Shown in pieces: positions 34,005-55,932 of a stretch of 64,000 nucleotides of DNA. Under the pieces are notes generated by a model. The model searched no databases and was not told where the DNA came from. It was given only the letters and a program-made list of their open reading frames with translations. Position numbers and translations under genes: made by a program. The DNA is taken from the IMG/VR virus record IMGVR_UViG_2775506840_000002, positions 1-64,000 of that record. The stretch is one strand, 5' to 3'. The stretch's first letter is position 1; the number at the start of each line of letters is the position of its first letter. This stretch comes from a virus. Taxonomy: Duplodnaviria; Caudoviricetes.

Positions 34005-34029
34005 TTTTAACCCTCCAGGTATATTAGTA

Positions 34030-35186: not shown

Positions 35187-35190
35187 AGAA

Positions 35191-36856: not shown

Positions 36857-36862
36857 CCCTTT

Positions 36863-37820: not shown

Positions 37821-37833
37821 TTAGAACACCACC

Positions 37834-38694
37834 TTAAATAGGACATACTATTTCTTCTTGAGTTGGTGCAGTTACTTGCGCTGGTACTTCTTGCTTATCT
37901 TCAACAAATGGTACATCTACAAATTCCTTACTTGCAGTCATTTCCTTTTGTTCTGCTTGTGGTGTAGGTGTAGATTCTTCATCTGCACCTTGATATGTAT
38001 CAATTAGATCTCCATCATCACTGGAGTTAATAAGTGTTTTACAAACCCTTGTGATAATAGTTTTTTTACACATTTCATCCGTAAAGTTTGTGTGTGCTCC
38101 TGACTTTCCTTTTGCATAGCCTTGATTCCATGATTTCTGGATTTGGTCGTAACTCATATATACAAGGTCACCTCTTGTACCATCTTTAAAGATTGGAATA
38201 GCAAATGCACCTGTAATTTTTGACAAATTAACATTAAGTGGATTTGGTTTGTAGGTCTTAAGCTGCATGGTGAGATCATCAATATTGAATTCCATTTCAA
38301 ATTCATCACCTTCATAGATAACAAAAGCCTTTACCTCTTCAAGACCTGAAACTCTTTTAGCAATAGCCAGCTTGCCGAAGTATGAAGTCATAAGCTGAAG
38401 CTTTCCTCCGAATGCTACAAAGTAGCATTGTTTTTTGCTTGGCTCTAGTCCCATCTTAACCATGTCTAAAAGAGAGTTGGCAATACTTTCTTTGGTACAA
38501 CTTTCAAGCACTGGTTTCTTCGCATTATCTACTGTTTCAGCTAAAATTAATGCAGCACTTTGAAGTGCATTTCCTGCTACATAGTTTTGTGGTAATACTA
38601 ATGACTTGTTCTCTTGAAGCTTGTTTACCTTTGCTAATACACTATCTGTAATTTCCTTTTGTGGTTTTACTGCTACTTGGTTATCTGACATCAT
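37834..38694 (-). CDS. recT: RecT-family recombinase
   Basis: SIANSLLDM..GLEP.KKQCYFV and HTNFTDEMCKKT motifs. Confidence 0.88.
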   Translation of the reverse strand: MMSDNQVAVKPQKEITDSVLAKVNKLQENKSLVLPQNYVAGNALQSAALILAETVDNAKKPVLESCTKESIANSLLDMVKMGLEPSKKQCYFVAFGGKLQLMTSYFGKLAIAKRVSGLEEVKAFVIYEGDEFEMEFNIDDLTMQLKTYKPNPLNVNLSKITGAFAIPIFKDGTRGDLVYMSYDQIQKSWNQGYAKGKSGAHTNFTDEMCKKTIITRVCKTLINSSDDGDLIDTYQGADEESTPTPQAEQKEMTASKEFVDVPFVEDKQEVPAQVTAPTQEEIVCPI

Positions 38695-38714
38695 TTGTTC
38701 CTCCTTGGTTTTAA

Positions 38715-38942
38715 TTAATTTAATGGCATTTGAAATACTTCATCATCTTTTGTTTTGTTTTGAATAAAGTTTGCTATAATAGCCATAACTTCTTTTGCTC
38801 TTTCCTTTGTTCCGTAATCCCCTAGATGCACATAATCTTTTCCATAATTATTTACTATTCTTCCGCTCTCCCAAGCCTTTACTGTCTTGCATAATGTTAA
38901 TGTTGTTCCATCTTGACTTCTAATCCAAATACCCTTCATCAT
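38715..38942 (-). CDS. Hypothetical phage protein
   Basis: IWIRSQD..LGDY.T.ERAKEVM..FQMP family pattern. Confidence 0.65.
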   Translation of the reverse strand: MMKGIWIRSQDGTTLTLCKTVKAWESGRIVNNYGKDYVHLGDYGTKERAKEVMAIIANFIQNKTKDDEVFQMPLN

Positions 38943-39100
38943 TTAGTTCCCTCGCTTTTCTTTTTGAATTTACATGTCCAACAATCATTACAAGTTGCAC
39001 ACTTTTTCTCTTTTCCATAATGGCTACACATAGCGCATGCTTTTGAACCATTGCATAAATGATTTTCTTTATCCCAGTTACCACATGTATCACGCTTCAT
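38939..39100 (-). CDS. Cys-rich 53-aa protein (not in ORF track)
   Basis: Start/stop overlaps on both sides; CAMC, CATC and CWTC motifs. Confidence 0.55.
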   Translation of the reverse strand: MKRDTCGNWDKENHLCNGSKACAMCSHYGKEKKCATCNDCWTCKFKKKSEGTK

Positions 39101-40995
39101 TATTCAATCCTCAACTCCTTATCAACTGCACTCACAATAAGGTCGATTACTTGACTTTGAGTTGCTGGAATGTCTGTTACAGATTCTCTATTATCAATGA
39201 ATATAGGCGCATTCATTCCATAGTGTTCACTTAGAACATTTATAATCTCTATACCAGCTTGAACTTGGGCTGCATTATTTGCATTGCTGAAAGGAACTCC
39301 ATTAATAAGTGATTCACAGCACTCTGCAAGTCCACCGTTTATTTGTTGATCAAATAGCTTAAAGCTTACGTTTTTAAACTTGCTATTGATATTAGCTTCT
39401 AGCATTTCTACTTTAGCCTTTGTAAAGTCCTCTATCATGATTTCTACTTGTTCTACATCTGCAAGCTTGCATTGTAAATCCTTAAGTTGCTCCTGAAGCT
39501 CTTTTATTCTTGCAAGCGCTTTAGCATTGGAATCATGCTTAGATACTCTTAATTTGATATTTTGAATATTAATCTCTTCCATTTTGATAGCTTGCTTAAT
39601 GGCTTCATTGTCTACGCTTTCAAATGCTTGTACCTCTTTTTTGAGAACATCTATTTGATTATCTATTTCAGACGTATCACATGGTGTAGTATCTATTGGC
39701 TTCTCAAGTATCTTTTCAACCTCATTAATATTTGATTGAATACTTACTAATTGGCATGCAATCTCTTCAAATCTAGTAGTTAAATTCTGCATGTTCTGCT
39801 GTGTATTTAGTAAATCTGCTTTAATTATGTTTGCTTCATTAAGCAAACGTTCTTGTCTTATAGCTTTCTCTTCTATGTATTTGCTTTTAAGCTTTTCAAC
39901 TTCTTCACTAGGTAGATCCTGTCCACAAGTAGGACAAATAGCTTTATGCTCATCAAAAGTTTCTTCTTCTATTTTCATCCATTCATTACGTCTGTCTGCT
40001 ACTTTTGAAGTAAGGATAACTTCATCTTGTTTTAATGCTTCAATTTTCTTGACAATACTATCTTGCTCATATGTATGATTAGATAACTCACGTTTTAAAG
40101 TTTCTAACCTGTCCTTATTTTGGTTGTATTCTGCATATGTAGATTTATTATGCGCTCTTATAATCTCTTCTTTTGTGCGCTCTAAACTTAGTATTTGATG
40201 TTGTTTTGTACGTATCTCATTAAACTGTGCATCTGTAGCTTCTAATTGTTTTTCTAACTCTGCTTTATATGCTTCTTTTTCATCTATTTTTGCCTGGAGA
40301 ACTTCTAACGGTTCAAGCCCTTCTTCTAGGCTTCTAGTTTGCTCATCAATTCTTGGTGGAATGTTCTCAATATCTGACTTAAGCTTCTTCTTAGTAGCTG
40401 CTAAAGACTTCTTGTATTCATCTGCACTTTTACCTGCTAATGTTTCTTGAAGTTTTTCATAACCCTCTATTTGGTTATCAGCAATATTGCCACATACTTC
40501 AAATAGGAACTTTCTTTTGTCTTGCCACTTCATTGCTTCAAAAGCTAATGGATTGGTTAAAAGCTTAAATGTCTTTTCATTAATAATTTCATTAACGTAC
40601 TCTTGATACTCACTCTTTTTGCAAGGAACCCCATCTATATAGTAGATAGTCTCATGACCACTAAACTCCTGTTCTGCTTGTCCACGCTTCTTAACCCACT
40701 TTTCTCTAAACAACTTTCCTAGTGTGAATGTCTTGCCATTCAATACAAAGTCAGCTGTAACTTCTGTATTAAGAAAATGAATAGGCTCATTGTGTTCTGT
40801 GAGTGGTTTAATCTCGAAGTCCTTACGCTCCTGGCTATCTTTGTCATATAATAACCAACTAAACGCATCTGCTATTGTTGTTTTCCCTGTTCCATTTGCT
40901 CCATATATCCTAGTTTCTGTTGTGTCGAAAAAAATTCTTCTTTCTTTAATTCCCTTGAAATTCTTCAACTCTAGTACTTTTAATAAAAGTTTCAT
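39100..40995 (-). CDS. SMC/Rad50-like ATPase
   Basis: GANGTGKTT, coiled coil with CPTC hook, IFIDN. Confidence 0.88.
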   Translation of the reverse strand: MKLLLKVLELKNFKGIKERRIFFDTTETRIYGANGTGKTTIADAFSWLLYDKDSQERKDFEIKPLTEHNEPIHFLNTEVTADFVLNGKTFTLGKLFREKWVKKRGQAEQEFSGHETIYYIDGVPCKKSEYQEYVNEIINEKTFKLLTNPLAFEAMKWQDKRKFLFEVCGNIADNQIEGYEKLQETLAGKSADEYKKSLAATKKKLKSDIENIPPRIDEQTRSLEEGLEPLEVLQAKIDEKEAYKAELEKQLEATDAQFNEIRTKQHQILSLERTKEEIIRAHNKSTYAEYNQNKDRLETLKRELSNHTYEQDSIVKKIEALKQDEVILTSKVADRRNEWMKIEEETFDEHKAICPTCGQDLPSEEVEKLKSKYIEEKAIRQERLLNEANIIKADLLNTQQNMQNLTTRFEEIACQLVSIQSNINEVEKILEKPIDTTPCDTSEIDNQIDVLKKEVQAFESVDNEAIKQAIKMEEINIQNIKLRVSKHDSNAKALARIKELQEQLKDLQCKLADVEQVEIMIEDFTKAKVEMLEANINSKFKNVSFKLFDQQINGGLAECCESLINGVPFSNANNAAQVQAGIEIINVLSEHYGMNAPIFIDNRESVTDIPATQSQVIDLIVSAVDKELRIE

Positions 40996-41040
40996 CTTAC
41001 AAATACCTCCTAATTGGTATATAATCTAACTGATAAATTT

Positions 41041-41421
41041 TTATTTATCTGCACCAGTATGCTTGCCGGCGGCTGGTGCATTTTTAATTGTATCTAATGC
41101 TCTTTGGTAAACTGCTGCTTCATGAATAAGTTCTTGTACTGCGAATAATACATATTCAACTATTATTTCAAGTTGATGATTGATATCTGCTATAGGCTTA
41201 TTCATCTTAATCATTTCCCAAAGTTCTACTTTATGAATGTGCAACCAATCAAGTTGTTCAAATGCTTCTTCATGTTCTTCTAATGCAAGTCCCCACATTT
41301 CATGATGATTGTGCATGTCACCCCATTTCTCTGTGTTAAACTCAGTTTGTTCTTGCTTAAGCTGCTTGATCATATCAAGTATGTATTGGTCTTTTTCTTC
41401 TTTTGACATTATCTTAATCAT
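41041..41421 (-). CDS. Hypothetical (MazG-like helical) protein
   Basis: HEMWGLALEEHEEA..ELIHEAAV. Confidence 0.5.
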   Translation of the reverse strand: MIKIMSKEEKDQYILDMIKQLKQEQTEFNTEKWGDMHNHHEMWGLALEEHEEAFEQLDWLHIHKVELWEMIKMNKPIADINHQLEIIVEYVLFAVQELIHEAAVYQRALDTIKNAPAAGKHTGADK

Positions 41422-41539
41422 TGCTATGCTCCTTTTTCCTTTCCTCATTTCTAGCTATGTATGATGCTCCTACCATTGATGTAATTCCTATCAAGTAACC
41501 AAATGAAAATATCAAAATATCTTTCATAAGTCCTCCTTT

Positions 41540-41701
41540 TTAGTTAGAAGCTATGTACATTGAAATGCCAAAGATACCAAGTGTTATAAATGATGAGATT
41601 ATATATTGTGTAAAATTAAGTAAGTCACATTCTAATCCGCCTGCAAGGCCCAAAAGCATTACAAATGATAATACCGAAATGGTACCCATTAGCTTTTTCA
41701 A
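41540..41701 (-). CDS. Small 2-TM protein (not in ORF track)
   Basis: RBS gaggtgag, TTG start, LLGLAGGLE motif. Confidence 0.5.
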   Translation of the reverse strand: MKKLMGTISVLSFVMLLGLAGGLECDLLNFTQYIISSFITLGIFGISMYIASN

Positions 41702-41755
41702 TTAACTCTCACCTCATTTTTAATTGCTTGTCCAATTTCATCGCTGTAGATGAAG

Positions 41756-41920
41756 TTAATCATCTACTTCTTGTTTAACATCAATATCTTTAATTGGATT
41801 TACAAACTCGTATCCTATCTTATGTACTGCATTAATAAGCATTTTTGTAAGCATTATCTTCTGTTCTTCTTTCGAATATGAATCTAAATCCTTTCCGTTA
41901 ACTGTATAAATTACTTTCAT
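41756..41920 (-). CDS. Small hypothetical protein
   Basis: RBS gaggtg before ATG at 41920. Confidence 0.5.
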   Translation of the reverse strand: MKVIYTVNGKDLDSYSKEEQKIMLTKMLINAVHKIGYEFVNPIKDIDVKQEVDD

Positions 41921-41994
41921 ACAATCACCTCTATTTATATCTATGTTTGTATAAAATTGTCCTATTAGCACTTTTACAATTTATTTGTATTATG

Positions 41995-42717
41995 CTATGC
42001 TCCTTTCTTCTCAAATAAACTTGTCTGTTCATAAGGTCTTTCCATCTTCAATATCCTTATACTCTCATCAATAATATCCATAGAATTTCTAAGCGTTTCT
42101 ATGTCTATATCCTCCCACTTTCTAGCACCTAACCTAATAAGTACACGTTCTTTAACCAGTTCGTATTCTTCATCAGCTTTGGCAATTCCTAAACGTTTCT
42201 TTATGTAATGGCTGATACTTGATTTATCTGCACATGATGGCTTGTAGTATTCAGAGCATTTCCTTTCTACTTGCTTGATAGCAATTCCTAATTGCTCGTC
42301 TACTAAGCCCATGATTTGCCCTTTGAACTCGGCTAGGGCTTTGTTTATATCTAGTGAATGAACAACTTGTTCCATCTCATTAAAGCGTTTTACGTACTTA
42401 GCTGTAAAAATTATTCCTTTTTCTCCTGTAAATTTATTTGCTAGAAAGTCACAACCTAATCTAGTGCAGTCATAGCATTTTCTTGGTTTACCTTGTGCGT
42501 CTATATATGTACTTTCTATGAAATAATCAGCCAACGGAAAATTCCGCTCGCTAAGAACCGGTATAATCCCCTTCGTTTTCACTGTTCCATCTGTTTTATT
42601 TGTCCCTTCTAACTTTTGTAAAATATCTGAATGTCTAACTTCCATCATCTCAGCAACTTCTACTGTAGTAATTGCTGCTGGCTTTTCTTGTTTCTTACAT
42701 AATGCATTCTTTGGCAT
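41995..42717 (-). CDS. Rha-family regulator / antirepressor
   Basis: EVAEMMEVRHSDIL and NKFTGEKG..FTAKYVKRFNEME motifs. Confidence 0.88.
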   Translation of the reverse strand: MPKNALCKKQEKPAAITTVEVAEMMEVRHSDILQKLEGTNKTDGTVKTKGIIPVLSERNFPLADYFIESTYIDAQGKPRKCYDCTRLGCDFLANKFTGEKGIIFTAKYVKRFNEMEQVVHSLDINKALAEFKGQIMGLVDEQLGIAIKQVERKCSEYYKPSCADKSSISHYIKKRLGIAKADEEYELVKERVLIRLGARKWEDIDIETLRNSMDIIDESIRILKMERPYEQTSLFEKKGA

Positions 42718-42720
42718 ATG

Positions 42721-42975
42721 TCATGCTCCTTTCAGTATTTGTTCTTCTTTCTGAACTTTTTCATTAAAAAAATATGATGGTATCTCTTCTTTTCTTAACC
42801 CTAAGACTTCTACTGAACGATTTATCTCATTTTGTGAAAATTCTAGTTTATTATTTAGTCTGTGGCTAAGTGAGACCCTTCCTATGCCTATCTTTTTAGC
42901 AAAATTATCTTGTGTTCCGCAAACTTCCTTAATTCTGCCTAGAAGCTTATTATAATCAAAACTCATTTTTCTCAC
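42721..42975 (-). CDS. Cro-like repressor (DUF739)
   Basis: FDYNKLLGRIKE.CGTQ..FA motif; divergent from cI. Confidence 0.85.
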   Translation of the reverse strand: MRKMSFDYNKLLGRIKEVCGTQDNFAKKIGIGRVSLSHRLNNKLEFSQNEINRSVEVLGLRKEEIPSYFFNEKVQKEEQILKGA

Positions 42976-42993
42976 TTCCTCTCTTTTTCATTT

Positions 42994-43110
42994 GTTCGTG
43001 TTTCTGAACTAACTAAATCATAAATCATGAATTTTTAACTGTCAATATATTTTTTCGTGTTTCTGAACTTTTTTTATTATTATTGGTGCATAATGTTGTC
43101 TTTTCTGAAC
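42994..43110. promoter_or_regulatory. Lysis/lysogeny operator repeats
   Basis: ttcgtgtttctgaact at 42995 and 43054; partial copies at 43101 and 42741. Confidence 0.7.
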
Positions 43111-43158
43111 ACATATGATATTATCAGAATAGATTAACAAAAAAGGAGCCTTTATATC

Positions 43159-43611
43159 ATGAAGAAAACTATATCAGAAAGAATAAGAGAAGGTTTAGCA
43201 ATAAGAGGCATGAAACAAGCTGATTTAGTTAATAAAACCGGAATTGGTAAATCCTCTATCAGTACTTATATTTCAGGTTCTTATGAACCTAAACAAACTA
43301 ATATCTATAAAATTGCTAAGGCATTAGATGTTAATGAGGCATGGCTTATGGGGCATGATGTTAAAATGGATAGAGATACCTCAGCCCAAGAACTTAATTT
43401 AACTGCAGCCGAACAGGAACATCTTAAGAGATATAGAACACTGGATGAAAAAGGACAACATACGGTAGATACCGTACTATATATGGAGTATAACCGTTGT
43501 ACCAATGACTATTTAATGCCAATAGCGGCACATAATGATAATATTAACGATGAACAATTAGAGAAAATAAATAGAGATATAGAAAACATTTTACTTAAGA
43601 AAAAAAGATAA
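43159..43611 (+). CDS. CI-like XRE repressor
   Basis: N-terminal HTH; AAH motif near C-terminus. Confidence 0.88.
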   Translation: MKKTISERIREGLAIRGMKQADLVNKTGIGKSSISTYISGSYEPKQTNIYKIAKALDVNEAWLMGHDVKMDRDTSAQELNLTAAEQEHLKRYRTLDEKGQHTVDTVLYMEYNRCTNDYLMPIAAHNDNINDEQLEKINRDIENILLKKKR

Positions 43612-43628
43612 TTTTATAATTTTTAAAG

Positions 43629-44153
43629 GTGATTTGCTTGAATGAATATGAAATTTTATTGCACAAAAGTTCTAAAGAAGGACTTGAAGTATTTGAAATG
43701 GCTTTGGAATCAGATTCTGATGCATTATGTGTTGGTGATACATTAGCCTTAAATACAAGACTATTAAGTACAGTACCCGAAAAAAGATGTACTTTAAGTG
43801 AGGAAGTCTGGCATAGCAAAACAACTGTTGGAAATATAATTGATACTCGTGACATTAATAATCTAAAACAAGAATGTTTTGCACGAAAGTGTTCTTTTGA
43901 AGATTTAATTCCGCTTGATAACATTGTGCAAGCATTACTTAATCACTGCTTAAATTTACAAGATGTATGTGAGTACCTGTGTGTAACAGAAAAGTACTTC
44001 TGTGAAGCAATTGCTTACTATAAGCAAAAATATGGTCCATATTATAGATGTAAAGAATACACATTACATTTTGAACCTTTGTCAGTTATAGGTTCATCAA
44101 AAGGAGATGGTTTAAATGACAGCAGCTCTTTATATTCGAGTAAGTACAGATGA
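43629..44153 (+). CDS. ImmA/IrrE-family anti-repressor protease
   Basis: EKRCTLSEEVWH..T.GNIID..KQE..AR motif; between repressor and integrase. Confidence 0.75.
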   Translation: MICLNEYEILLHKSSKEGLEVFEMALESDSDALCVGDTLALNTRLLSTVPEKRCTLSEEVWHSKTTVGNIIDTRDINNLKQECFARKCSFEDLIPLDNIVQALLNHCLNLQDVCEYLCVTEKYFCEAIAYYKQKYGPYYRCKEYTLHFEPLSVIGSSKGDGLNDSSSLYSSKYR

Positions 44154-45576
44154 TCAGCTAGAGTTCTCTCCTGATGCTCAAAAAAGAGCATTACTTGAAT
44201 ACGCTAAAAAGAATAATATATTAGTAGATGAACAATATATTTTTGTTGATGAAGGTATTAGTGGCACAAGTGCTAAGAAAAGACCTGCCTTCCAAACTAT
44301 GATTGCTACAGCGAAGAAAAAGCCTAAACCATTTGATACTATTTTAGTTCATAAATTCGATCGTTTTGCACGTTCTAGGGAAGACTCTGTAGTATATAAA
44401 AGTCTTCTTCGTAAAGAATGCGACATAAAAGTTATATCTATAACAGAACAAATGGAAGATGATAAATTCAGTGTTATTCTAGAGGCTATGCTTGAAGCTA
44501 TGGCAGAATACTACTCTCTTAACTTAAGTGATGAGGTTATGAAAGGAATGACTGAAAAAGCACGTAGAGGGTTACCACAGTCAGAAGCACCATATGGATA
44601 TAGGCGCGATGGAGATAAATATGTTTTAGTAGATGATGAAGCTGAAATTGTAAAAATGATATTCTCAAAATTTAATAGTGGTGAACTTGGATACGGGGAA
44701 ATTTGCAGGTTTTTACTTCTAAATGGAATTACAAATAGAAAGGGTCAATCATTTACTGTTAGTGGAATAAAATATATGCTAGAAAATCCAATTTATTGTG
44801 GTAAAGTTCGCTGGAACTACTCTACTCATAAAGGTGGGCGTAGGAAAAATCCCAAAGAAGAATGGATCATAACCGATGGTGAGCATCAACGTATTATTAG
44901 CGATGAACTATACCAAAGTGTTCAACAAAAGATTGCTTCATTAAAAAAGGCTCCTGGACACTATACTCCTAATAAAGAAATTAAGCACTGGTTAAGTGGG
45001 CTCTTAAGATGTTCAAATTGCAACAAGGTATTAGTGTATAATAAAGGTTATCATAAGTACCCCTTTTATAGATGTAACGGATATAATAAAGGCGTATGCA
45101 CTACCAGCAATATGGGGCCATTACATTTTTATGAAAAAGAAGTTTTGAAAGCATTATCTCTTAAATTTAATGAGCTTAGCCAAGGACTAGGCAACATAGA
45201 TTCAGTAGTTGTAAAAACAAATAAAGAAACATCCAATAAAATTCTTCTTCAAAAACAGTTAGAAAAGGTTAGAAGAAAATATGAAATTGCTAAAAAGGCT
45301 TATTTGGCTGAAATTGATACTTTAGAAGAATATGCAAACAATAAATCAGATATTGAAAAAGAAGAAAGAGATCTATTAGATAAACTTTCTAAAGAAATTA
45401 GTTCTGAGGATGTATCAAAAATTATAACTTCTAAGTTAGAACATGCCATCCAAATATTAAATGATGATTCAAAAAGTAATACTGAAAAAAATACATTTTT
45501 AAAGAGCTTTATAAATAGTATAGATGTAGATAGAAACAATGATATACTAAAGATAAATATGTACGTAGAGTGCTAA
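44116..45576 (+). CDS. Large serine recombinase (integrase)
   Basis: YIRVSTDDQ, DRFARS, recombinase domain, Zn ribbon LSGLLRCSNC. Confidence 0.95.
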   Translation: MTAALYIRVSTDDQLEFSPDAQKRALLEYAKKNNILVDEQYIFVDEGISGTSAKKRPAFQTMIATAKKKPKPFDTILVHKFDRFARSREDSVVYKSLLRKECDIKVISITEQMEDDKFSVILEAMLEAMAEYYSLNLSDEVMKGMTEKARRGLPQSEAPYGYRRDGDKYVLVDDEAEIVKMIFSKFNSGELGYGEICRFLLLNGITNRKGQSFTVSGIKYMLENPIYCGKVRWNYSTHKGGRRKNPKEEWIITDGEHQRIISDELYQSVQQKIASLKKAPGHYTPNKEIKHWLSGLLRCSNCNKVLVYNKGYHKYPFYRCNGYNKGVCTTSNMGPLHFYEKEVLKALSLKFNELSQGLGNIDSVVVKTNKETSNKILLQKQLEKVRRKYEIAKKAYLAEIDTLEEYANNKSDIEKEERDLLDKLSKEISSEDVSKIITSKLEHAIQILNDDSKSNTEKNTFLKSFINSIDVDRNNDILKINMYVEC

Positions 45577-45596
45577 TCATAAGCACTCTTTTTATT
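45567..45596 (+). terminator. Intrinsic terminator after integrase
   Basis: agagtgct-aatcata-agcactct followed by T-tract. Confidence 0.75.
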
Positions 45597-45617
45597 TGTG
45601 TACCTTTAATACTCCAA

Positions 45618-45709
45618 GGTTACCTGGAAAAGTTGCCCCTATGACAGCAGCAGCAATCCTCTATCAAGGTCTTACTCTCATCATGCGCGAACAGGGGGAA
45701 CAAATATGA
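45618..45709 (+). pseudogene. spoVFA: 3' fragment of dipicolinate synthase subunit A, split at attR
   Basis: Reads LPGKVAPMTAAAILYQGL..., the DpaA C-terminal motif; stop overlaps dpaB start (ATGA). Confidence 0.8.
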
Positions 45710-46068
45710 CAGATTTGAAAAATTTAAAATTAGGTGTTGCACTTTGCGGCTCCTTTTGTACGTTTAAGAAAGCAATGGTTATGCTTCAAAATTTAGTTGA
45801 CTTAGGTGTTGATGTCTATCCAATTATGTCTTTCAATGCGTACTCTATTTCTACACGTTTTGGAAGTGCCACTGACTTTATAGATCAAGTTGAAACGATT
45901 ACTGGAAAACCAATCATTCATTCTATTCATGATGCAGAACCTTTAGGACCAAAAAGTATGATTGATGCACTTCTCATTGCACCTTGCACAGGTAATACAC
46001 TTTCTAAAATTGACCATGCAATTGTTGATACACCTGTTGTTTTAGCTGCAAATGCAACCATGATATGA
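45706..46068 (+). pseudogene. spoVFB: 5' part of dipicolinate synthase subunit B, truncated at about 46052 by prophage 2
   Basis: LCGSFCT, STRFG, AEPLGPK, IAPCTGNTLSK and DTPV motifs; stops at 120 aa where AKAHLRN... is expected. Confidence 0.9.
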
Positions 46069-46511
46069 ATATGGGTTTCTATAAGTACACTTTATCAAAT
46101 ACTTGGCATGAGTTAAAAGCAATTAAAACTCTTGGTGATTGTATTAGATTTAATAGACTAAAAGCAAAATTAACTCAGGCTGAGCTTGCGAATAAGATTG
46201 GGTTAGATAAAAATACAATCTACTTACTAGAAAAAAATAAAGCTCTACTACACGTAAAATTTATTTTAAAAATTGAAGAAATCCTATCCTGCTCTTTAGT
46301 TGGATTTGATGAGTATTATGATTTTGCACGAGATACTTCTACATATATCATAAATATTAGAAATAAATTAGGATTAAAACGTAAAGGCTTTAGTAAATTG
46401 ATAGGAGTACATAGTAGTACTTTATTAAAATGGGAAACAGGTAAGTCATATATAACAAGAATGCATATGAACAAATTAAGCTTTTTTTTCCTTGATAATA
46501 ATATTTCTTAA
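46065..46511 (+). CDS. Tandem XRE-HTH protein
   Basis: Two HTHs (LTQAELANKIG; LKRKGFSKLIGVHSSTLLKWETG); start overlaps truncated dpaB stop. Confidence 0.8.
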   Translation: MNMGFYKYTLSNTWHELKAIKTLGDCIRFNRLKAKLTQAELANKIGLDKNTIYLLEKNKALLHVKFILKIEEILSCSLVGFDEYYDFARDTSTYIINIRNKLGLKRKGFSKLIGVHSSTLLKWETGKSYITRMHMNKLSFFFLDNNIS

Positions 46512-46710
46512 TTAACATAGCTAATCTATAAACTATTTATATGTTCAAGGCAATTGCAAGGATGATAGTGATTACTAATAACGTCCCAAAATAGCTAGTA
46601 ATTAGTACTCTTCTTAAATTAAATTTTTCCATAAAAATAGACCACACTCCTTATTTTTCTAGAGTGTGGCCTTTTATTTATATTTTTATACTATAAAAAT
46701 ATATTCTAAT

Positions 46711-47816
46711 CTAATAGCATACTTTGCAAGCCTCGTATCCTTGTTTTTTAGCATCATCAACTGTTAGTTCTCTGCTTGTTGTATTAATATATCTACAAGC
46801 TTTATAATGATATTTTTTACCTGTTCCAGTTACCCAAACCTTTTGGCCTGTTGATTGTATAGTAGTTGACTCTATAATTGTATTAGTAGGATTTGTTGAT
46901 ATCTGTACATTATTTATAGTATTCGATATAGTATCAACTTTAGTTACTATAGGTGTCTGCATCACTTTACCGTCTACTTTTTGTGTAGATATAGTAAGTA
47001 TTTTCTCATCACTAGTAATAATAATATTGCCATTTAAATCAGTTCTATATGTTTTAATGTCTTTAAGTCTGTCGCTTACTTCTTTATGCGGGTGGCCATA
47101 CTTATTGTCCTTTCCACAAGTAATAACAGCTATTTCAGGTTTTACTTTATCCAAAAACTCTTTACTTGTTGAAGTATTACTTCCGTGATGCCCTACTTTA
47201 AGTACATCTATATCTATCATTTTATCTAAGATAGATTTTTCTACATCTTTGCCAGCCAGCATCTCCTGTAAATAAAAATTCATGCTCATCGTTTTTATAA
47301 AGCATTATTAAACTTCTATCATTTACATCTTTAGATTGACTTTTTGTATTATAAAATTGGAATGTACCATTACCTAAAGTAACTATTTTATCTTCTAATG
47401 GTACACTTGGTTTTAAATTTTTATTAGTAGCAGCTTGAACACAATCTTTATAAGTTTTTGTATCAGCACTACCATTTCCAATTAACACTATGCCAATTTC
47501 GAAGTTCTTGATTACTGCATCTAATGCCCCACAATGGTCTGCATCTGGATGAGTTAATACTATGTAATCTAATTTTTTTACCTCTTGCATCTTAAGGTAT
47601 TCTACAAGAGACTTTTCATCATCATTTTCTGCTCCATCTATAAGCATATTTTTACCGTTGTCTTTAATAAGAATTGAATCACTGTTTCCAGTATCAATAA
47701 AAATGTACTTCAACCGATTGTATAATTTGAATTTGCTGGACATTTTTTGCAAATAATGTATTGGTAATTAGTAATAATGACATAATAAATATCAAAAATT
47801 TACTAGATCTCTTCAC
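46711..47816 (-). pseudogene. Secreted ComEC/Rec2-like MBL hydrolase with two frameshifts
   Basis: Signal peptide, VHF|IDTG, THPDADH, GDA|G and VGHHGS motifs; +1 T near 47700 and 4-bp tggc duplication near 47255. Confidence 0.8.
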
Positions 47817-47922
47817 TTTTATCCCTCCATTTTCTGCTATACTATTTCACAAAGTAATATATTTAATACTTTTAATCTTAAAATAACATTGTCCATAAAT
47901 ATATATTTTTAGTCATATCGTT

Positions 47923-48732
47923 TTATACACTTAATTCTTTTTCTTTCTGATATATTAAATCTAATAATCTATTCTTTATCTCATCTTTATTATGTGCATA
48001 ATGAGATCTAGCATGACAATTTGCACATATTGCCGCTACTGATACTGGGTGATCAGGTCCATTATCGGATAATCTAGTAATATGATGAACTTCTAAATAC
48101 ATATCACCATTTTTTTTTACAAATCCTCTTTCTCCGCACAATTCACATACTCCCTGTGAGCGCCTCATAGCATACTCCCTAATCGCCTTACTCCTTTTCC
48201 TTACATTTATTTTTATTTCCTCACTAGACGCTCCCTCAACAGCTTGCTCCATAGCCTTTTTTCTCAATTCTTCTAATGATTGATTTAGATTACTTTCTGC
48301 TAAATCATTAAAATCACAGCCTACATCTATATTATCAATGGGATTTAATTCAAACACTATTGAATTTCTCTCTCTATTGTTTTTATCTATGGCTTGTATT
48401 ATCTCGTAACCCAGGCACATAAATTCGCCAATATATTTAACATATGCTGATTTTACATATTGAAACAGAAATATAGATTTATTATTTTTCAAGTGATCTC
48501 TTACTGCTTTATTTCCTCTTATAAATTGCATATGCCCTATCTGGCCTTCTCCTGTATACTTAAAGGTTCCATATTTAGTCCAACTATCTGCATATCCAAA
48601 TTCATCTCCTGACTCACCTGTAAATATAAATATACAAGGAAAGTTTGTAGGTGTACTTATTCCACCTTGTCCTTGACCTCCATATTCCATATGAATATTT
48701 TTACGCTTATAAACTTCATTTCTAATAAACAT
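47923..48732 (-). CDS. SRA-like plus HNH endonuclease (McrA-like, putative modification-dependent restriction)
   Basis: GGQGQGGIS..GYAD.W..F.YTGEGQ.G N-domain; CELC..EVHH..CANCH. Confidence 0.8.
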   Translation of the reverse strand: MFIRNEVYKRKNIHMEYGGQGQGGISTPTNFPCIFIFTGESGDEFGYADSWTKYGTFKYTGEGQIGHMQFIRGNKAVRDHLKNNKSIFLFQYVKSAYVKYIGEFMCLGYEIIQAIDKNNRERNSIVFELNPIDNIDVGCDFNDLAESNLNQSLEELRKKAMEQAVEGASSEEIKINVRKRSKAIREYAMRRSQGVCELCGERGFVKKNGDMYLEVHHITRLSDNGPDHPVSVAAICANCHARSHYAHNKDEIKNRLLDLIYQKEKELSV

Positions 48733-48856
48733 AACCTCTCCCTCCTTTATCTGACTATACTATATCATAAAATTTATTAGTATATTTAACTATTTCCTAT
48801 AGTATTCCTCTTTACATGAAAAAGCTAGAACCATAGTCCTAGCTAAAATAATAACT

Positions 48857-51811
48857 CTATTTATACAATATACTTGATTTAGTAACCTTTATGTCTGAAT
48901 CACAATAATTTAAATATGTTGCTATTTCTTCTACATTACTTACTTTAGGCCCAAGTATTACTTCTTCTAAATCTATGTCTTTATTAATTTCTATAAATAA
49001 ATGAGGCACCCTCCATGTAGAAATTTTATCTGTTTGCACATTATTACTCCCAAATCTTATAAGTCTTATTTCTTTCTCATATTTATATTGAGCATATTTA
49101 TACAGAAATCTTACTTGATCTAATATATTGCATATTATTTTTCTCATTGTTATATCTCTTACTTTATCTATACCTAAATCATTTAATATAATACAAATTT
49201 CTTCAAAGATTTTTTCATCTATATTCATAAAATCTTCTTCTATATAACTTACTTTGTATAAACAATTTGTTATTTTATTATTTTCTTTTAGCAAAATATC
49301 CTCATCTTCTTTTAAATTCTCTTCTACCCTATGATATGTAAGACTGTGTTTTTCCTCATTATCAAAAAAAGTATTCTTAAATAGTAAACAACACCCTTCT
49401 CCATTCTCACTATACGTTGTCCACATAGGTAAATTATCTTCAGACTCTGAAAAACTTGTTATATACGTTTGACTATAGTTATTTAATATTTTTCTTCCAT
49501 TTTTTGTACTATCTTCATTATACAAAATATCTATAATATCTTTTATAGACTTATACTGATTATTATTTTTACATAGTAATTCTTTATCTATATGACTTAA
49601 TATATTTTTAAAGACTTCGCCCTCCATTGGATCATTCATATAGACCGAATTGTTTAACCTTAATCGTGGCTTACTTTGTTTATCTAAGTCATTTACTCCT
49701 TTATTAGGTTTAATTAAAAAGTTAATCGTATTCATCTTAGTATAATGACAAATTTTTGAGTCTTGATTTACTATTTTAATTCTTGATTTTTTCAGTTCAC
49801 TAACCTTAATAAATAATTTTATAATTTGTATGTATGTATTCTCATCCTTTAATGTGTTCTTTAGATATTCTAAGAAAGATCTATTGTCTTTCTCTAACAT
49901 TAACAAATTTAATTGATCCTTAATATATTCTTTTGAGTCTATTGGAAACAATTTCATTCTCTCAGTGTAGTAGCCCTTATTATAAGGATTTAATTTAATT
50001 GCATTTTCATAATCTGCCAAAGCTTTTTCTAGATTTTCTAGCCTCCTATATACCTCTGCTCTCTCTTTAAATGCAAGGCTATTTTGGGGATCTAGCTCTA
50101 TTGCTCTTGTATAATTTTTTAATGCTTCTTCATTTTCATCCCATAGACCATATATATATCCTCTGCTATAATATGCATTACTGCTATTAGGCTCTAATTC
50201 TACTATTTTATCCGCATCTTCTAATGATTTTAACTTATCATTTAGTTTATTATATAATATTGCTCTATTACTATAGTATATAGACGTATCAGGTTTTAAT
50301 TCAATTGCTTTTGTATAATCTGCTAACGCTTGTTCTAGTCTCTTGGTTATGCTATATAATATTCCTCTACGATTGTAGTACAATGCATTAGTAGGTTTCA
50401 ATTCAATTGCTTTTGTATAATCTGCTATAGCCTTTTCTTCTTCCTTAAGATCTCTATATAGTACTCCTCTACGGTTGTAGTACAGTGGATTATCAGGTTT
50501 CAATTCAATTGCTTTTGTATAATCCTCTACTGCCTTCTCTTGTTCATTAAGTTCTCTATATAGCAGCCCTCTACTACTGTAGTACTGTGAATTATTAGGT
50601 TTCAATTCAATTGCTTTTGTATAATCCTCTACTGCCTTCTCTTGTTCATTAAGTTCTCTATATAGCAGCCCTCTACTACTGTAGTACTGTGGATTATCAG
50701 GTTTCAATTCAATTGCTTTTGTATAATCCTCTACTGCCTTCTCTTGTTCATTGAGTTCTCTATATAGCGCCCCTCTAAACTTATAGTACTGTGCATTACC
50801 AGGTCTCAATTCAATTATTTTTGTATAATCTGCTAATGCCTTCTCTTGTTCATTGAGTTCTTTATATAGGGATCCTCTAAACTTATAGTACAATACATTT
50901 TTAGGCTCTAATTCAATTGATTTTGTATAATCTGCTAATGCCTTCTCTTGTTCATTGAGTTTTCTATATAGCGCCCCTCTAAGTTTATAGTACAATGCTT
51001 TATTAGGATCTAATTCAATTGCTTTTGTATAATCTGCTAATGCCTTTTCTTCTTCTTGTGACTCTCTATATATCATTCCTCTAACCTTATAATACAATGC
51101 ATTAGTCGGATCTAATTCAATTGCCTTTGTATAATCCGCTACTGCCTTCTCTACTTGTGACTCTTTATATATTAATCCTCTATAAGCGTAGTACTGTGCA
51201 TTAGTCGGATCTAATTCAATTGCTTTTGTATAATCTGCTAATGCCTTTTCTTCTTGTGACTCTTTATATATTAATCCTCTATAAGCGTAGTACTGTGCAT
51301 TAGTCGGATCTAATTCAATTGCTTTTGTATAATCTGCTAATGCCTTTTCTTCTTCTTGTGACTCTTTATATATTAATCCTCTATAAGCGTAGTAGTGTGT
51401 ATTAGTCGGATCTAATTCAATTGCTTTTGTATAATCTGCTAATGCCTTTTCTAATTTTTCTTCTTCTTGTGACTCTTTATATAGCATTCCTCTATAAGCG
51501 TAGTACTGTGTATTAGTCGGATCTAATTCAATTGCTTTTGTATAATCTGCTAATGCCTTTTCTAATTTTTCTTCTTGTGACTCTTTATATAGCATTCCTC
51601 TATAAGCGTAGTACTGTGCATTAGTCGGATCTAATTCAATTGCTTTTGTATAATCTACTAACGCCTTTTCTTCTTCTTCCAACTCTCTATATAGTCTAGC
51701 TCTACTATTATATGCGCTGGCATCCTTTCTATCTAACTCTATTTTTCTTGTATAAATTTCTATCTCTCTCTTAATACTATCAGTAGTTTCTTCCTGCATT
51801 TGTGCTTTCAT
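48857..51811 (-). CDS. TPR-array protein with C-terminal DUF2971-like domain
   Basis: About 17 TPRs; HYT, MNDPMEG, LPMWTTY, EKEIR and ILGPK motifs. Confidence 0.85.
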   Translation of the reverse strand: MKAQMQEETTDSIKREIEIYTRKIELDRKDASAYNSRARLYRELEEEEKALVDYTKAIELDPTNAQYYAYRGMLYKESQEEKLEKALADYTKAIELDPTNTQYYAYRGMLYKESQEEEKLEKALADYTKAIELDPTNTHYYAYRGLIYKESQEEEKALADYTKAIELDPTNAQYYAYRGLIYKESQEEKALADYTKAIELDPTNAQYYAYRGLIYKESQVEKAVADYTKAIELDPTNALYYKVRGMIYRESQEEEKALADYTKAIELDPNKALYYKLRGALYRKLNEQEKALADYTKSIELEPKNVLYYKFRGSLYKELNEQEKALADYTKIIELRPGNAQYYKFRGALYRELNEQEKAVEDYTKAIELKPDNPQYYSSRGLLYRELNEQEKAVEDYTKAIELKPNNSQYYSSRGLLYRELNEQEKAVEDYTKAIELKPDNPLYYNRRGVLYRDLKEEEKAIADYTKAIELKPTNALYYNRRGILYSITKRLEQALADYTKAIELKPDTSIYYSNRAILYNKLNDKLKSLEDADKIVELEPNSSNAYYSRGYIYGLWDENEEALKNYTRAIELDPQNSLAFKERAEVYRRLENLEKALADYENAIKLNPYNKGYYTERMKLFPIDSKEYIKDQLNLLMLEKDNRSFLEYLKNTLKDENTYIQIIKLFIKVSELKKSRIKIVNQDSKICHYTKMNTINFLIKPNKGVNDLDKQSKPRLRLNNSVYMNDPMEGEVFKNILSHIDKELLCKNNNQYKSIKDIIDILYNEDSTKNGRKILNNYSQTYITSFSESEDNLPMWTTYSENGEGCCLLFKNTFFDNEEKHSLTYHRVEENLKEDEDILLKENNKITNCLYKVSYIEEDFMNIDEKIFEEICIILNDLGIDKVRDITMRKIICNILDQVRFLYKYAQYKYEKEIRLIRFGSNNVQTDKISTWRVPHLFIEINKDIDLEEVILGPKVSNVEEIATYLNYCDSDIKVTKSSILYK
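50290..51690 (-). repeat. Intragenic tandem repeats of about 102 bp encoding TPRs
   Basis: aattcaattgcttttgtataatc recurs about every 99-111 bp. Confidence 0.9.
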
Positions 51812-51984
51812 CCTAAATCCTCTTTATTATTTTATTATCAATAATATTATATATATAATTACACGATAGTTCAAGATTTAACAATATCTCTTCCAAGTAT
51901 CTATGATTATTTAGATAATATATTTACAACAATCATTGTATACACCTTTATATGTATAAGAATATCTATTGGCTAGTATATTTT

Positions 51985-53686: not shown

Positions 53687-53788
53687 ATTTCCTCCTTAGT
53701 ACAATACTCTATTTTTAAAAAAGGCATAAAAAATAATGCTATCTCTAGTGCCTTTTCTATGCCTTATTTACTTTCTAAAATCATTCTT

Positions 53789-55316: not shown

Positions 55317-55327
55317 CCTTTCGCCTC

Positions 55328-55918: not shown

Positions 55919-55932
55919 TTAAAGTTCACTCC

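What the first reader, a model, noticed from the sequence alone, without database searches (positions are those of the whole stretch)
44116..46511. Both genes of the dipicolinate synthase operon (spoVFA and spoVFB) appear split by two separate prophages
Seen: after the serine integrase and its terminator, the frame LPGKVAPMTAAAILYQ... (DpaA C-terminus) starts abruptly at about 45618 within the dyad ccaagg-tta-cctgg and runs into dpaB by ATGA overlap. dpaB breaks at gctgca-AA-tgcaac (about 46045-46058), an inverted repeat around a dinucleotide, where AKAHLRN should follow, and prophage 2 cargo begins. Established: serine-recombinase elements that split mother-cell genes and excise during sporulation are known (skin in sigK, SPbeta in spsM, vfbin in spoVFB). 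Inference: here two large prophages gate adjacent genes of one operon, so DPA synthesis would need two excisions, an AND gate on spore maturation. I do not know of a described spoVFA-splitting element or a doubly gated operon.
Basis: partly seen in the sequence, partly recalled or inferred. Interest (0 to 1): 0.9.

Follow-up and report, generated by a model that had tools for sequence, protein, structure and literature searches.

The report
Two prophages split one spore operon
Two separate, complete prophages, each with its own serine integrase, sit inside the two neighbouring genes for the spore chemical dipicolinate in a Holtiella-like bacterium, so both would have to cut themselves out before the enzyme can be made.

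Summary
The record is a 91,927-bp IMG/VR "provirus"; the window is its first 64 kb. It is a composite of two unrelated myovirus-type prophages separated by 433 bp of host DNA (45620-46052). That island holds the last 29 codons of dpaA and codons 1-115 of dpaB, and is 433/433 identical to Holtiella tumoricola CC70A.

Prophage 1 ends with a 486-aa large serine recombinase (44116-45576) and interrupts dpaA at ..SLPG|KVAP... Prophage 2 starts at 46053, interrupts dpaB at ..VVLAA|K.., and ends with a second recombinase of 552 aa at record 90269-91927.

The distal gene halves are outside the record. They exist in near-identical strains:
- CC70A carries prophage 1 only.
- One public assembly has both sites empty.
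- A metagenome contig with an 86%-identical integrase 2 shows the expected right junction plus dpaB 3'.

Joining the halves in silico restores full-length ORFs. In the host family, 17 of 47 genomes have a recombinase element in dpaA or dpaB, and two have both.

Sporulation-timed excision, and so the AND gate, is inferred only. I found no sporulation promoters and no directionality factor. My literature searches found no described dpaA-splitting element. I rate this a new variant of a known kind.

The parts
1..45619 (.). Prophage 1. Its left end and attL lie outside the record. Myovirus-type, with its own packaging, head, sheath-tail, lysis, recombination and lysogeny modules.
   Evidence: PHROGs: terminase large subunit 20963-22819 (5e-228), portal 18994-20577, major head 16511-17554, tail sheath 13533-14978, tape measure 10639-12498, endolysin 2355-3050, RecT-like 37834-38694. 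It is 98% identical to the CC70A prophage over 35689-42355 and 43506-46052.
43629..44153 (+). ImmA-like metalloprotease gene of the lysogeny module. It overlaps the start of integrase 1.
   Evidence: phrog_87 metallo-protease, 2.3e-25; ORF table.
44116..45576 (+). Integrase 1: a large serine recombinase of 486 aa.
   Evidence: Pfam Resolvase, Recombinase and Zn_ribbon_recom. It is 99% identical to the CC70A copy. The next nearest of 251 order genomes is 52% identical.
45567..45589 (+). Terminator-like hairpin over the integrase 1 stop codon.
45600..45629 (.). attR of prophage 1: phage arm 45600-45619, then the 10-bp stretch TTACCTGGAA (45620-45629) that is shared with attL of CC70A.
   Evidence: The phage arms at attL (CC70A) and attR (window) are imperfect inverted repeats of each other.
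45620..45709 (+). dpaA 3' remnant: 29 codons (LPGKV...GEQI) plus the stop codon.
   Evidence: tblastn to intact DpaA residues 260-287. 100% identical to CC70A.
45706..46052 (+). dpaB 5' part: codons 1-115 plus two bases of codon 116.
46045..46075 (.). attL of prophage 2: host arm ..gctgca, central AA (46051-46052), then phage arm TGCAACCATGATATGAATATGG.
   Evidence: The reverse complement of this phage arm nearly equals the phage arm at attR of contig L124, whose integrase is 86% identical.
46053..64000 (.). Prophage 2, left 18 kb. It runs on to record position 91927, where integrase 2 (552 aa, 90269-91927) ends the record at its own stop codon.
   Evidence: PHROGs: endolysin 51985-53217, holin 53210-53686, baseplate 56753-57853, tail proteins, tape measure 60321-62432. 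Beyond the window: sheath, major head, portal, terminase (7.1e-101), replication, repressor, metalloprotease, integrase (phrog_95, 1.6e-120). Shares with prophage 1 only a 952-bp tail-fibre segment at 78% identity and two short matches of 95 and 78 bp.
46065..46511 (+). First gene of prophage 2: a double HTH (XRE-type) regulator.
   Evidence: Pfam HTH_3, 9.4e-17, 2 stretches; phrog_8.

Best explanation
Shown: a Holtiella-like spore-former (family Cellulosilyticaceae by the titles of related records) carries two independent temperate phages integrated in tandem in its dipicolinate synthase operon. Each was inserted by its own large serine recombinase (LSR) through attP x attB recombination at a short core inside a coding sequence.
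- Prophage 1 (more than 45.6 kb) sits near the 3' end of dpaA, 26 codons before the stop.
- Prophage 2 (about 45.9 kb) sits in codon 116 of dpaB.
- The two recombinases are unrelated in sequence (about 25% identity) and recognise different sites, so the two excisions are chemically independent.
- Precise excision restores each ORF.

Inferred: as with skin (sigK), SPbeta (spsM) and vfbin (spoVFB), the recombinases are probably made in the lysogen from the lysogeny module. A phage-encoded directionality factor, made in the mother cell or after DNA damage, would then switch them to attL x attR excision. The operon (sigmaK-type promoter upstream of dpaA) would be rebuilt only in the terminally differentiated mother cell, while the spore keeps both prophages. 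DpaA and DpaB are both needed, and dpaB is cut off from its promoter by prophage 1. DPA synthase therefore needs both excisions, which is a logical AND.

My odds: about 0.9 for the structure, about 0.55 for developmental excision.
For: Structure:
- Two LSR genes lie on the record.
- The host island is 433/433 identical to CC70A, with sharp breaks at 45620 and 46052.
- Each prophage has a full and different gene set with almost no DNA similarity to the other.

Site 1:
- CC70A has the same integrase next to the same dpaA 3' remnant. Its dpaA 5' part (HMM positions 3-268) is on another contig and ends ..SLPG followed by phage DNA.
- The two junctions share TTACCTGGAA. Joining there gives a 290-aa DpaA that aligns 1-287 without gaps to an intact homolog.

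Site 2:
- The 86%-identical integrase in contig L124 is followed, 36 nt after its stop codon, by a phage arm that mirrors the window's attL arm, and then by dpaB 3' encoding KSLMRNGKPIILAISTN, as in CC70A.
- The 82%, 57%, 52%, 46% and 41% homologs all sit directly upstream of dpaB 3' halves.

Natural empty sites:
- A contig of run X3 covers only 45612-46052 (1 difference). It continues on both sides with the uninterrupted dpaA and dpaB sequences.

Specificity:
- LSRs cluster by target. The dpaB-site and dpaA-mid labels each need 1 change on an 18-row tree, and 0 of 500 shuffles were as low. Branch support is only 75/99 and 53/81.

Recurrence:
- 17 of 47 family genomes have an element in dpaA or dpaB.
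- In G025 all four gene pieces lie on one 1.44-Mb contig, and both genes rejoin to full length without gaps.

Constraint on split genes:
- Split dpaB genes compared with each other give dN/dS of 0.056-0.139 (0.056-0.10 among G023, G025 and G027).
- Small 4.7-kb elements still keep an intact LSR.

Host:
- CC70A has sigK, spoIVA and spoVAD above the curated cut-offs and no second dpaA or dpaB.
- An AC-N17-CATAGGTTA match lies about 45 nt upstream of dpaA in CC70A. This is a consensus match only.
Against: - The distal halves and the left end of prophage 1 are not in the record.
- The parent contig was not found, and no public run holds both junctions (best share of words 0.61). The two junctions are therefore linked only by this one contig.
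- There is no sequence sign of sporulation control. SigmaK-like motifs number 14 against 11.7 +/- 3.2 in shuffles, and sigmaE-like 2 against 1.4 +/- 1.4.
- None of the 20 small ORFs I scanned matched an excisionase or directionality-factor family.
- Both prophages carry repressor plus metalloprotease modules. By recalled analogy with ImmR/ImmA of ICEBs1, that fits ordinary damage-induced induction.
- Both prophages look intact and recent, and strains with empty sites exist, so no long co-evolution is shown for these two.
- dS is mostly saturated, and how long those genes have been split is unknown.
- Three of the family genomes with a split dpaB (G023, G025, G027) also have a second dpaB-like gene.
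- DpaA of this family scores under the TIGR02853 cut-off (best 245.9 against 319.65 bits).
Confidence: 0.55

Rival explanations
1. Ordinary lysogeny that simply knocks out the operon. The two phages use dpaA and dpaB only as safe integration sites, because the genes are dispensable in vegetative growth. They excise only on prophage induction. Lysogens would then make no DpaAB in the mother cell and would either form DPA-poor spores, sporulate poorly, or make DPA by another enzyme.
For: - Both prophages have complete lytic gene sets and repressor plus metalloprotease lysogeny modules.
- Sporulation promoter motifs are not enriched, and no directionality factor was recognised.
- Occupancy varies among near-identical hosts: both sites empty in X3, prophage 1 only in CC70A and in X1/X2. 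That points to recent, reversible infection.
- Recalled, not checked here: some clostridia that lack spoVF make DPA with EtfA.
Against: - 17 of 47 family genomes tolerate such elements, at three precise sites.
- Some elements have shrunk to 1.6-4.7 kb and can no longer be phages, yet they keep the recombinase and open gene halves.
- Split dpaB genes show dN/dS of about 0.06-0.14.
- The published cases (skin, SPbeta, vfbin, yin) all excise in sporulation (passages read).
- The host keeps spoVAD, sigK and spoIVA.
Confidence: 0.3
2. Assembly chimera. Two single lysogens of one species, one with prophage 1 in dpaA and one with prophage 2 in dpaB, were joined across the shared 433-bp island. In that case no single cell has both genes split.
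For: - Hosts carrying prophage 1 but not prophage 2 exist.
- No public run holds both junctions.
- The origin and read support of the record are unknown to me.
- 433 bp is shorter than many insert sizes but longer than a read.
Against: - The record is one contig that runs more than 45 kb on each side of the island.
- Double occupancy is real in relatives. In G025 all four pieces lie on one 1.44-Mb contig, and G012 has both junction types.
Confidence: 0.08
3. Decaying operon in a lineage that is losing sporulation. On this reading the insertions are just hits in pseudogenes.
For: - Some family genomes show degenerate states. G028 has an integrase with an internal stop and no dpaA or dpaB 5' found.
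- G031, G032 and G033 have dpaA 5' halves only about 30% identical to an intact DpaA.
Against: - The island is 433/433 identical to the intact-gene strains, and both remnants are open.
- The joined ORFs are full length.
- CC70A keeps sigK, spoIVA and spoVAD.
- The insertions are at exact recombinase sites, not at random places.
Confidence: 0.04

Closest known systems
vfbin, the spoVFB (dpaB)-intervening element of Bacillus weihenstephanensis KBAB4 (Abe et al. 2013; I saw it only as cited in passages of PMC4191935, PMC10747680, PMC5595907 and PMC6957869; the paper itself is not held)
   Same: It is an element inside dpaB/spoVFB that carries a serine recombinase. By those passages it is excised in sporulation so that the gene is rebuilt.
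   Different: Prophage 2 lies in a member of the Clostridia. By gene content it looks like a complete phage rather than a defective element. Whether the insertion point or the recombinase is homologous to vfbin's could not be tested here.
SPbeta prophage in spsM of Bacillus subtilis 168 (SprA integrase, SprB directionality factor; PMC4191935, passages read)
   Same: It is an active, full-size temperate phage with a large serine integrase at one end, inserted in a sigmaK-dependent mother-cell gene. Excision follows two routes: DNA damage and sporulation.
   Different: It has a different target gene and a single element per gene. SprB has a mother-cell promoter, and no such factor or promoter was found here.
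skin elements in sigK of B. subtilis (SpoIVCA) and Clostridioides difficile (CD1231/CD1234; PMC5025042, passages read)
   Same: A serine recombinase rebuilds a mother-cell gene. The elements range from prophage-like to much reduced, as do the 1.6-47 kb elements seen in this family.
   Different: The target is a regulator (sigmaK), not an enzyme operon, and there is one element per locus.
Heterocyst-specific excision elements of Anabaena (nifD, fdxN and hupL elements; recalled from memory; cyanobacterial elements are mentioned in general terms in the PMC5025042 passage)
   Same: Several independent elements, each with its own recombinase, must all leave nitrogen-fixation genes in a terminally differentiated cell. 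This is the closest precedent for an AND requirement.
   Different: The setting is cyanobacteria and heterocysts, not endospores. The elements are not complete phages, and they lie in different operons rather than in two adjacent genes of one bicistronic operon.
yin element in yabG of Clostridium botulinum V73 (PMC10747680, abstract and passages read)
   Same: It is a prophage with a serine recombinase in a sigmaK-dependent sporulation gene of a clostridium. Integrated and excised forms coexist.
   Different: It has a different target and is reported as unique to one strain. The dpaA and dpaB sites here are used across a whole family.

Membership tests
Sporulation-gene intervening elements (skin / SPbeta / vfbin / vrin / gin / yin kind) | The element lies inside the coding sequence of a mother-cell sporulation gene. 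| tested here: met
   dpaA is broken at ..SLPG|KVAP.. and dpaB at ..VVLAA|K... That dpaAB is sigmaK-dependent is established for B. subtilis. For this host there is only a consensus-like motif.
Sporulation-gene intervening elements (skin / SPbeta / vfbin / vrin / gin / yin kind) | The element encodes its own site-specific recombinase next to an att site. | tested here: met
   Integrase 1 ends 43 nt before the attR1 core. Integrase 2 ends the record, and in homologs attR follows 36 nt after the stop codon.
Sporulation-gene intervening elements (skin / SPbeta / vfbin / vrin / gin / yin kind) | Precise excision restores an intact gene. | tested here: met
   Tested in silico with the distal halves of CC70A: DpaA of 290 aa, and DpaB identical to the CC70A protein. 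A natural empty-site allele exists in run X3. This is not the same genome as the record.
Sporulation-gene intervening elements (skin / SPbeta / vfbin / vrin / gin / yin kind) | Excision takes place in the mother cell during sporulation. | not testable with these tools
   No run holds the doubly split form, and the runs laid were contigs only. Assemblies G014 and G008 hold both occupied and empty junctions. That could reflect excision or a mixture of strains.
Sporulation-gene intervening elements (skin / SPbeta / vfbin / vrin / gin / yin kind) | The recombinase or its directionality factor is under a sporulation sigma factor. | tested here: inconclusive
   The motif scan was at chance level. 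Of 20 small ORFs scanned, none fell in an excisionase or RDF family. RDFs of serine integrases share no common family, so a blank result is weak evidence.
Large serine recombinase (phage serine integrase) | An N-terminal resolvase catalytic domain, a recombinase domain, and a zinc-ribbon/coiled-coil C-terminal part. | tested here: met
   Integrase 1 has all three Pfam domains. Integrase 2 has Resolvase (1.1e-40) and Recombinase (1.2e-21) and matches phrog_95 integrase over residues 10-542. I did not scan integrase 2 for the zinc ribbon separately.
Large serine recombinase (phage serine integrase) | Short att sites with imperfect dyad symmetry around a central dinucleotide, and no long direct repeats. 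| tested here: met
   Site 2: host ..GCTGCA, AA, phage TGCAACCATG.. at attL, and phage ..CATGGT(A/T)GCA, AA, host at attR in 8 relatives and in L124. Site 1: a shared 10-bp stretch flanked by inverted phage arms. The exact crossover dinucleotide of site 1 is not resolved.
vfbin specifically | The same insertion point in spoVFB and a homologous recombinase. | not tested
   The paper is not held, and no Bacillus genome was reachable from my handles.
Dipicolinate synthase subunits DpaA / DpaB (NCBIfam TIGR02853 / TIGR02852) | A score above the curated equivalog cut-off. | tested here: inconclusive
   DpaB: intact CC70A scores 253 bits against a cut-off of 229, so the feature is met. The window fragment scores 133 bits because it is truncated. 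DpaA: 0 of 47 family genomes reach 319.65 bits, and the best is 245.9. The DpaA assignment therefore rests on the best sub-threshold match plus the conserved position directly upstream of dpaB with overlapping stop and start.

The most novel reading that the evidence does not exclude
The dpaAB operon of Cellulosilyticaceae is a family-wide landing pad with three separate recombinase sites: dpaA middle, dpaA 3' end, and dpaB codon 116. Each site is served by its own clade of large serine recombinases. Elements at these sites run from complete phages down to 1.6-4.7 kb cassettes that have been taken over by the host, and one of these carries an agr quorum-sensing module. Where two sites are filled, as in this record, G025 and G012, spore dipicolinate synthesis is placed under a true two-input AND gate of two orthogonal, phage-encoded excision switches in the mother cell. 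Each phage would then be able to veto or time spore maturation independently.
Probability: 0.4. Interest if true: 0.8.

Novelty: new variant of a known kind. Interest (0 to 1): 0.68.

Why it matters
Prophages that leave a sporulation gene only in the mother cell are a textbook example of phage-host co-option, but few target genes are known: sigK, spsM, spoVFB, spoVR, gerE and yabG.

This finding would add three things:
- dpaA as a new target, with two different sites.
- The spoVFB case extended from Bacillus to the Clostridia.
- Two unrelated elements stacked in one bicistronic operon, so that one enzyme depends on two independent recombination events.

That is directly testable, because Holtiella tumoricola CC70A is a cultured strain that carries one of the two elements. 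It would also supply natural, orthogonal pairs of serine integrases and att sites.

There is a practical point too. The IMG/VR record is a composite of two phages plus host DNA, so its size and its "98% complete" label should not be read as those of one virus.

Tried and rejected
- Distal halves on the record: TIGR02852 gave one match, the 5' fragment. TIGR02853 gave none at E<=10.
- Parent contig: an exact 39-nt pattern from the record's right end found 0 stretches in metagenome contigs.
- Public runs: 20 of the 24 listed rows hold some part of 45400-46300, with a best share of words of 0.61. Of the 4 runs laid (all Logan contigs), none bridges 46052/46053 into prophage 2. Parts of the stretch without cover in those runs prove nothing.
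- IMG/VR relatives: integrase 2 gave 1 locus (50% identity) with only 33 nt downstream. Integrase 1 gave 19 loci (31-64% identity on the best segment). I checked the 18 loci other than L089 and found no dpa remnant downstream, so these target other sites or are free phage contigs.
- Isolated phages: the best matches were 39.0% (integrase 1) and 39.5% (integrase 2). No close cultured relative turned up.
- Sporulation promoters: the motif scan was at chance level.
- Directionality factor: 20 small ORFs, chosen by eye from the early regions, gave no excisionase or RDF family in PHROGs. The conserved small ORFs of the G025 and G027 mini-elements have no homolog on the record.
- Comparison with vfbin: the paper is not held.
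I did not use structure prediction, complex prediction or the large protein searches, because no claim here rests on a fold or on binding.
- dN/dS: one search tried 5 split and 8 intact dpaB genes. My motif rules captured only 4 split and 3 intact ones, and the others were dropped, not judged. dS is above 1 in 19 of the 21 pairs and not computable in one more.
- Tree: the broken G028 integrase and the CC70A copy of integrase 1 were left out.
- Partial matches I did not count: G039's are contig ends that read through the site. G018, G077 and G100 were not examined.
- I considered homologous recombination between the two prophages as a cause of the arrangement and rejected it. They share only 952 bp at 78% identity, and the junctions are exact recombinase sites.

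Full report
**What the record is.** The window is the first 64,000 bases of a single 91,927-base record that the tools label an IMG/VR provirus. It has no N and is one contig. Its ends are gene ends. The left end is the stop side of a minus-strand ORF (1-819), and the right end is the TGA of a recombinase gene. The provirus caller therefore trimmed the flanking host DNA away.

**The observation.** A 486-aa ORF at 44116-45576 is a large serine recombinase (LSR) with Resolvase, Recombinase and Zn_ribbon_recom domains. A terminator-like hairpin lies at 45567-45589. From 45620 a frame reads LPGKVAPMTAAAILYQGLTLIMREQGEQI*, and there is no open frame upstream of it. Its stop overlaps, as ATGA, the start of a 120-aa ORF (45706-46068) that matches the first half of the flavoprotein/DpaB family.

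I compared this with the closest genome found, Holtiella tumoricola CC70A (locus L006; the name comes from the tool's record title). The stretch 45620-46052 is identical at 433 of 433 positions. Identity stops sharply after gctgcaAA at 46052, where CC70A goes on with the rest of dpaB (..AAKSLMRNGKPIILA.., 195 aa). Only the guessed continuation (AKAHLRN) differs from the real one (AKSLMRN).

**Two different prophages.** To the left of the island, PHROGs finds a terminase, portal, major head protein, tail sheath, tape measure, endolysin, RecT and an ImmA-like metalloprotease. To the right it finds a second, different set: endolysin, holin, baseplate, tail proteins and tape measure. Beyond the window the right-hand set continues with sheath, head, portal, terminase, replication initiator, repressor, metalloprotease and a second LSR of 552 aa at record 90269-91927. 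The two halves share only one 952-bp tail-fibre segment at 78% identity and two short matches. The two LSRs are about 25% identical. In both prophages the integrase is the last gene on the right and points toward the host gene's 3' part. The record is therefore a composite: prophage 1, then 433 bp of host DNA, then prophage 2.

**Site 1 (dpaA, 3' end).**
- CC70A carries the same integrase (99% identical) next to the same dpaA remnant, and its dpaB is intact.
- Its dpaA 5' part lies on another contig (HMM positions 3-268 of 287). It ends ..VPAPSLPG and then runs into foreign DNA that begins with a metallo-beta-lactamase-fold gene.
- That left junction and the window's right junction share TTACCTGGAA. 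The element arms on either side are imperfect inverted repeats of each other.
- Joining at the shared stretch, inside a script, gives a 290-aa protein that aligns to an intact family DpaA over 1-287 with no gap.
- CC70A has no other dpaA or dpaB. The next dpaB-model hit scores 26 bits.

**Site 2 (dpaB, codon 116).** The right junction of prophage 2 is outside the record, so I looked at relatives of integrase 2.
- In the 47 genomes of the host's family, the closest homologs are 82, 58, 57, 52, 46 and 41% identical. All lie directly upstream of a dpaB 3' half that starts at the same codon (K of KSLMRN).
- A metagenome contig (L124) has an 86%-identical integrase. Its stop codon is followed by 36 nt that end in ..CATATCATGGTAGCA, then by AA and a dpaB 3' part encoding KSLMRNGKPIILAISTN, the CC70A residues.
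- The reverse complement of the window's element arm at 46053-46074 is nearly the same as that arm. The phage site is thus a near-palindrome around a central AA, the usual look of a serine-integrase attP.
- The window's dpaB 5' part joined to CC70A's 3' part reproduces the CC70A DpaB exactly.

**Natural alleles.** Public runs gave three states in near-identical hosts.
- A contig of run X3 matches only 45612-46052 (1 difference). It continues on the left with the dpaA 5' sequence seen in CC70A and on the right with ATCTCTTATGCGTAATGG.., so both sites are empty.
- Contigs of X1 and X2 (one sample) follow prophage 1 from 43506 to 46052 and then leave the window's sequence exactly at 46052. Prophage 1 is present and prophage 2 is not.
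- The record itself has both. No run holds the doubly split form (best share of words 0.61), so the record's linkage of the two junctions has no independent support.

**The family picture.** I searched the 47 species genomes of the host's family with the DpaB and DpaA models and with integrase 2, and read the junctions.
- The dpaB site is occupied in 8 genomes: G004, G012, G014, G023, G025, G027, G028 and G044.
- A second site in the middle of dpaA (..ILNA.PT|AEGA..) is occupied in 10 genomes: G008, G012, G025, G031, G032, G033, G036, G042, G045 and G047. The recombinases there are 35-49% identical to integrase 2.
- The dpaA 3' site is occupied only in G001 (CC70A).
- That makes 17 of 47 genomes with at least one element, and two (G025 and G012) with both genes split.
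- In G025 all four pieces lie on one 1.44-Mb contig: dpaA 5', an element of about 45 kb, dpaA 3' plus dpaB 5', a 4.7-kb element, and dpaB 3'. Both genes rejoin to full length without gaps.
- On a tree of 18 recombinases, the dpaB-site and dpaA-mid labels each need a single change, and 0 of 500 shuffles were as low. Support is moderate (75/99 and 53/81). Integrase 1 is a distant outlier.
- Its nearest relatives in 251 genomes of the order are at most 52% identical.
- In that order sample, 148 of 251 genomes have dpaB. The fragmentary dpaB matches listed outside the family came from 2 genomes that I did not examine, and 3 further matches were not listed. Use of these sites therefore seems concentrated in this family.

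**Does excision serve sporulation?** This part is inference.

Points for:
- The published elements of this kind all do so (passages of PMC4191935, PMC5025042, PMC5595907 and PMC10747680).
- Elements at these sites include small remnants (1.6 and 4.7 kb) that cannot be phages, yet they keep the recombinase and open gene halves.
- Split dpaB genes compared with each other give dN/dS of 0.056-0.139 (0.056-0.10 among G023, G025 and G027). dS is saturated and the age of the splits is unknown.
- Assemblies G014 and G008 contain both the occupied and the empty junction.
- CC70A keeps sigK, spoIVA and spoVAD above the curated cut-offs.
- A sigmaK-consensus-like motif lies upstream of its dpaA.

Points against:
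- SigmaK/sigmaE-like motifs on the record are at chance level.
- None of the 20 small ORFs I scanned falls in an excisionase or directionality-factor family.
- Both prophages carry repressor plus metalloprotease modules that fit ordinary induction.
- Both look recent.
- G023, G025 and G027 also hold a second, divergent dpaB-like gene, 45% identical in G025.

**The AND logic.** It follows from the anatomy if excision does occur. The two recombinases and their sites are unrelated, so each excision is separate. Prophage 1 removes the last 26 codons of DpaA. It also puts more than 45 kb and a terminator between the operon's promoter and dpaB. Prophage 2 removes the last 80 codons of DpaB.

**Literature.** The library searches were: 'intervening element + spoVFB + sporulation' (5 papers), 'dpaA + serine recombinase + prophage + excision' (0), 'spoVFA + intervening' (2, neither about a split gene), 'dipicolinate synthase + prophage + attB' (3), 'dpaA + prophage' (12; I opened only the top hit, which uses dpAA for a dinucleotide, and judged the rest from their listings) and 'spoVFA + prophage' (3). 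They show vfbin in spoVFB as the only dipicolinate-synthase case, and no dpaA/spoVFA-splitting element. The original vfbin paper is not held and supplements are closed, so this is 'not found', not 'not in print'.

One aside comes from the Epulopiscium genome paper (PMC3416734, passages read). Its authors compared Epulopiscium with Cellulosilyticum lentocellum. They could not recover spoVFA and found a sigmaK promoter only at spoVFB. A split dpaA would be one possible reason, which I did not test.

**Verdict.** The structural reading is well supported: two serine-integrase prophages, one in each gene of dpaAB. The developmental AND gate is plausible but unproven. The dpaB half is a new member of a known kind. 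The dpaA sites and the double occupancy make this a new variant of the known kind of sporulation-gene intervening element.

Noticed in passing
L060 3799-8545 (G025) and L063 2343-7000 (G027): The 4.7-kb elements that split dpaB in these two genomes are syntenic. Besides the recombinase they carry AgrB (PF04647, 4.6e-36), a conserved ORF of 55-61 aa, and a GHKL histidine kinase. This is an agr-type quorum-sensing cassette riding inside a sporulation-gene intervening element.
   Followed up: partly
L067 (G033), L090 (G031), L091/L092 (G032): These genomes have 1.6-kb inserts at the dpaA middle site. Each holds only a 325-344-aa recombinase (Resolvase plus Recombinase domains, C-terminal part missing), in the opposite orientation. 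The dpaA 5' halves there are only about 30% identical to an intact DpaA, so these may be decaying or a different arrangement.
   Followed up: partly
G014 (L065, L066, L107) and G008 (L095, L096): Both the occupied junction (attR) and the empty site (attB) are present at contig ends of the same assembly. This fits either excision in the sequenced material or a mixture of strains.
   Followed up: no
window 1-819, 47923-48732, 48857-51811: The left-end cargo of both prophages looks like anti-phage defence: an HNH effector (PADLOC PDC-M68A, 1.1e-35), a type IV restriction-like HNH protein (3.7e-16), and a 984-aa TPR protein with a PDC-S31-like C-terminal part (2.4e-10).
   Followed up: partly
window 46711-47752: A metallo-beta-lactamase-fold gene is split into two overlapping ORFs of 192 and 176 aa, so it is probably frameshifted. 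A 79%-identical intact 359-aa copy is the first gene at the left end of the dpaA prophage in CC70A, so cargo modules move between these phages.
   Followed up: partly
whole record (1-91927): The IMG/VR 'provirus' with CheckV completeness 98 is two prophages plus 433 bp of host DNA. Its boundaries were cut at gene ends inside prophage 1 and at the integrase 2 stop codon.
   Followed up: yes
G023, G025, G026, G027, G033; L104: A second full-length dpaB-like gene sits away from dpaA in five family genomes. It scores 247 bits on TIGR02852 in G025 but is only 45% identical to Holtiella DpaB. Its function is unknown, and it could buffer a split dpaB.
   Followed up: no
window 5390-6305 and 55185-56106: The only long similarity between the two prophages is a 952-bp tail-fibre segment at 78% identity. 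Logan contigs of three laid runs (X1, X2 and X3) show 'goes back' joints there at 55500-55723, which suggests a variable repeat.
   Followed up: no
G012:C113 (L102) versus the other dpaA-mid elements: At the dpaA middle site the recombinase gene lies next to the 3' half in the same direction in most genomes. In G012, G031, G032 and G033 it lies next to the 5' half in the opposite direction, so this site may accept the element in both orientations.
   Followed up: no
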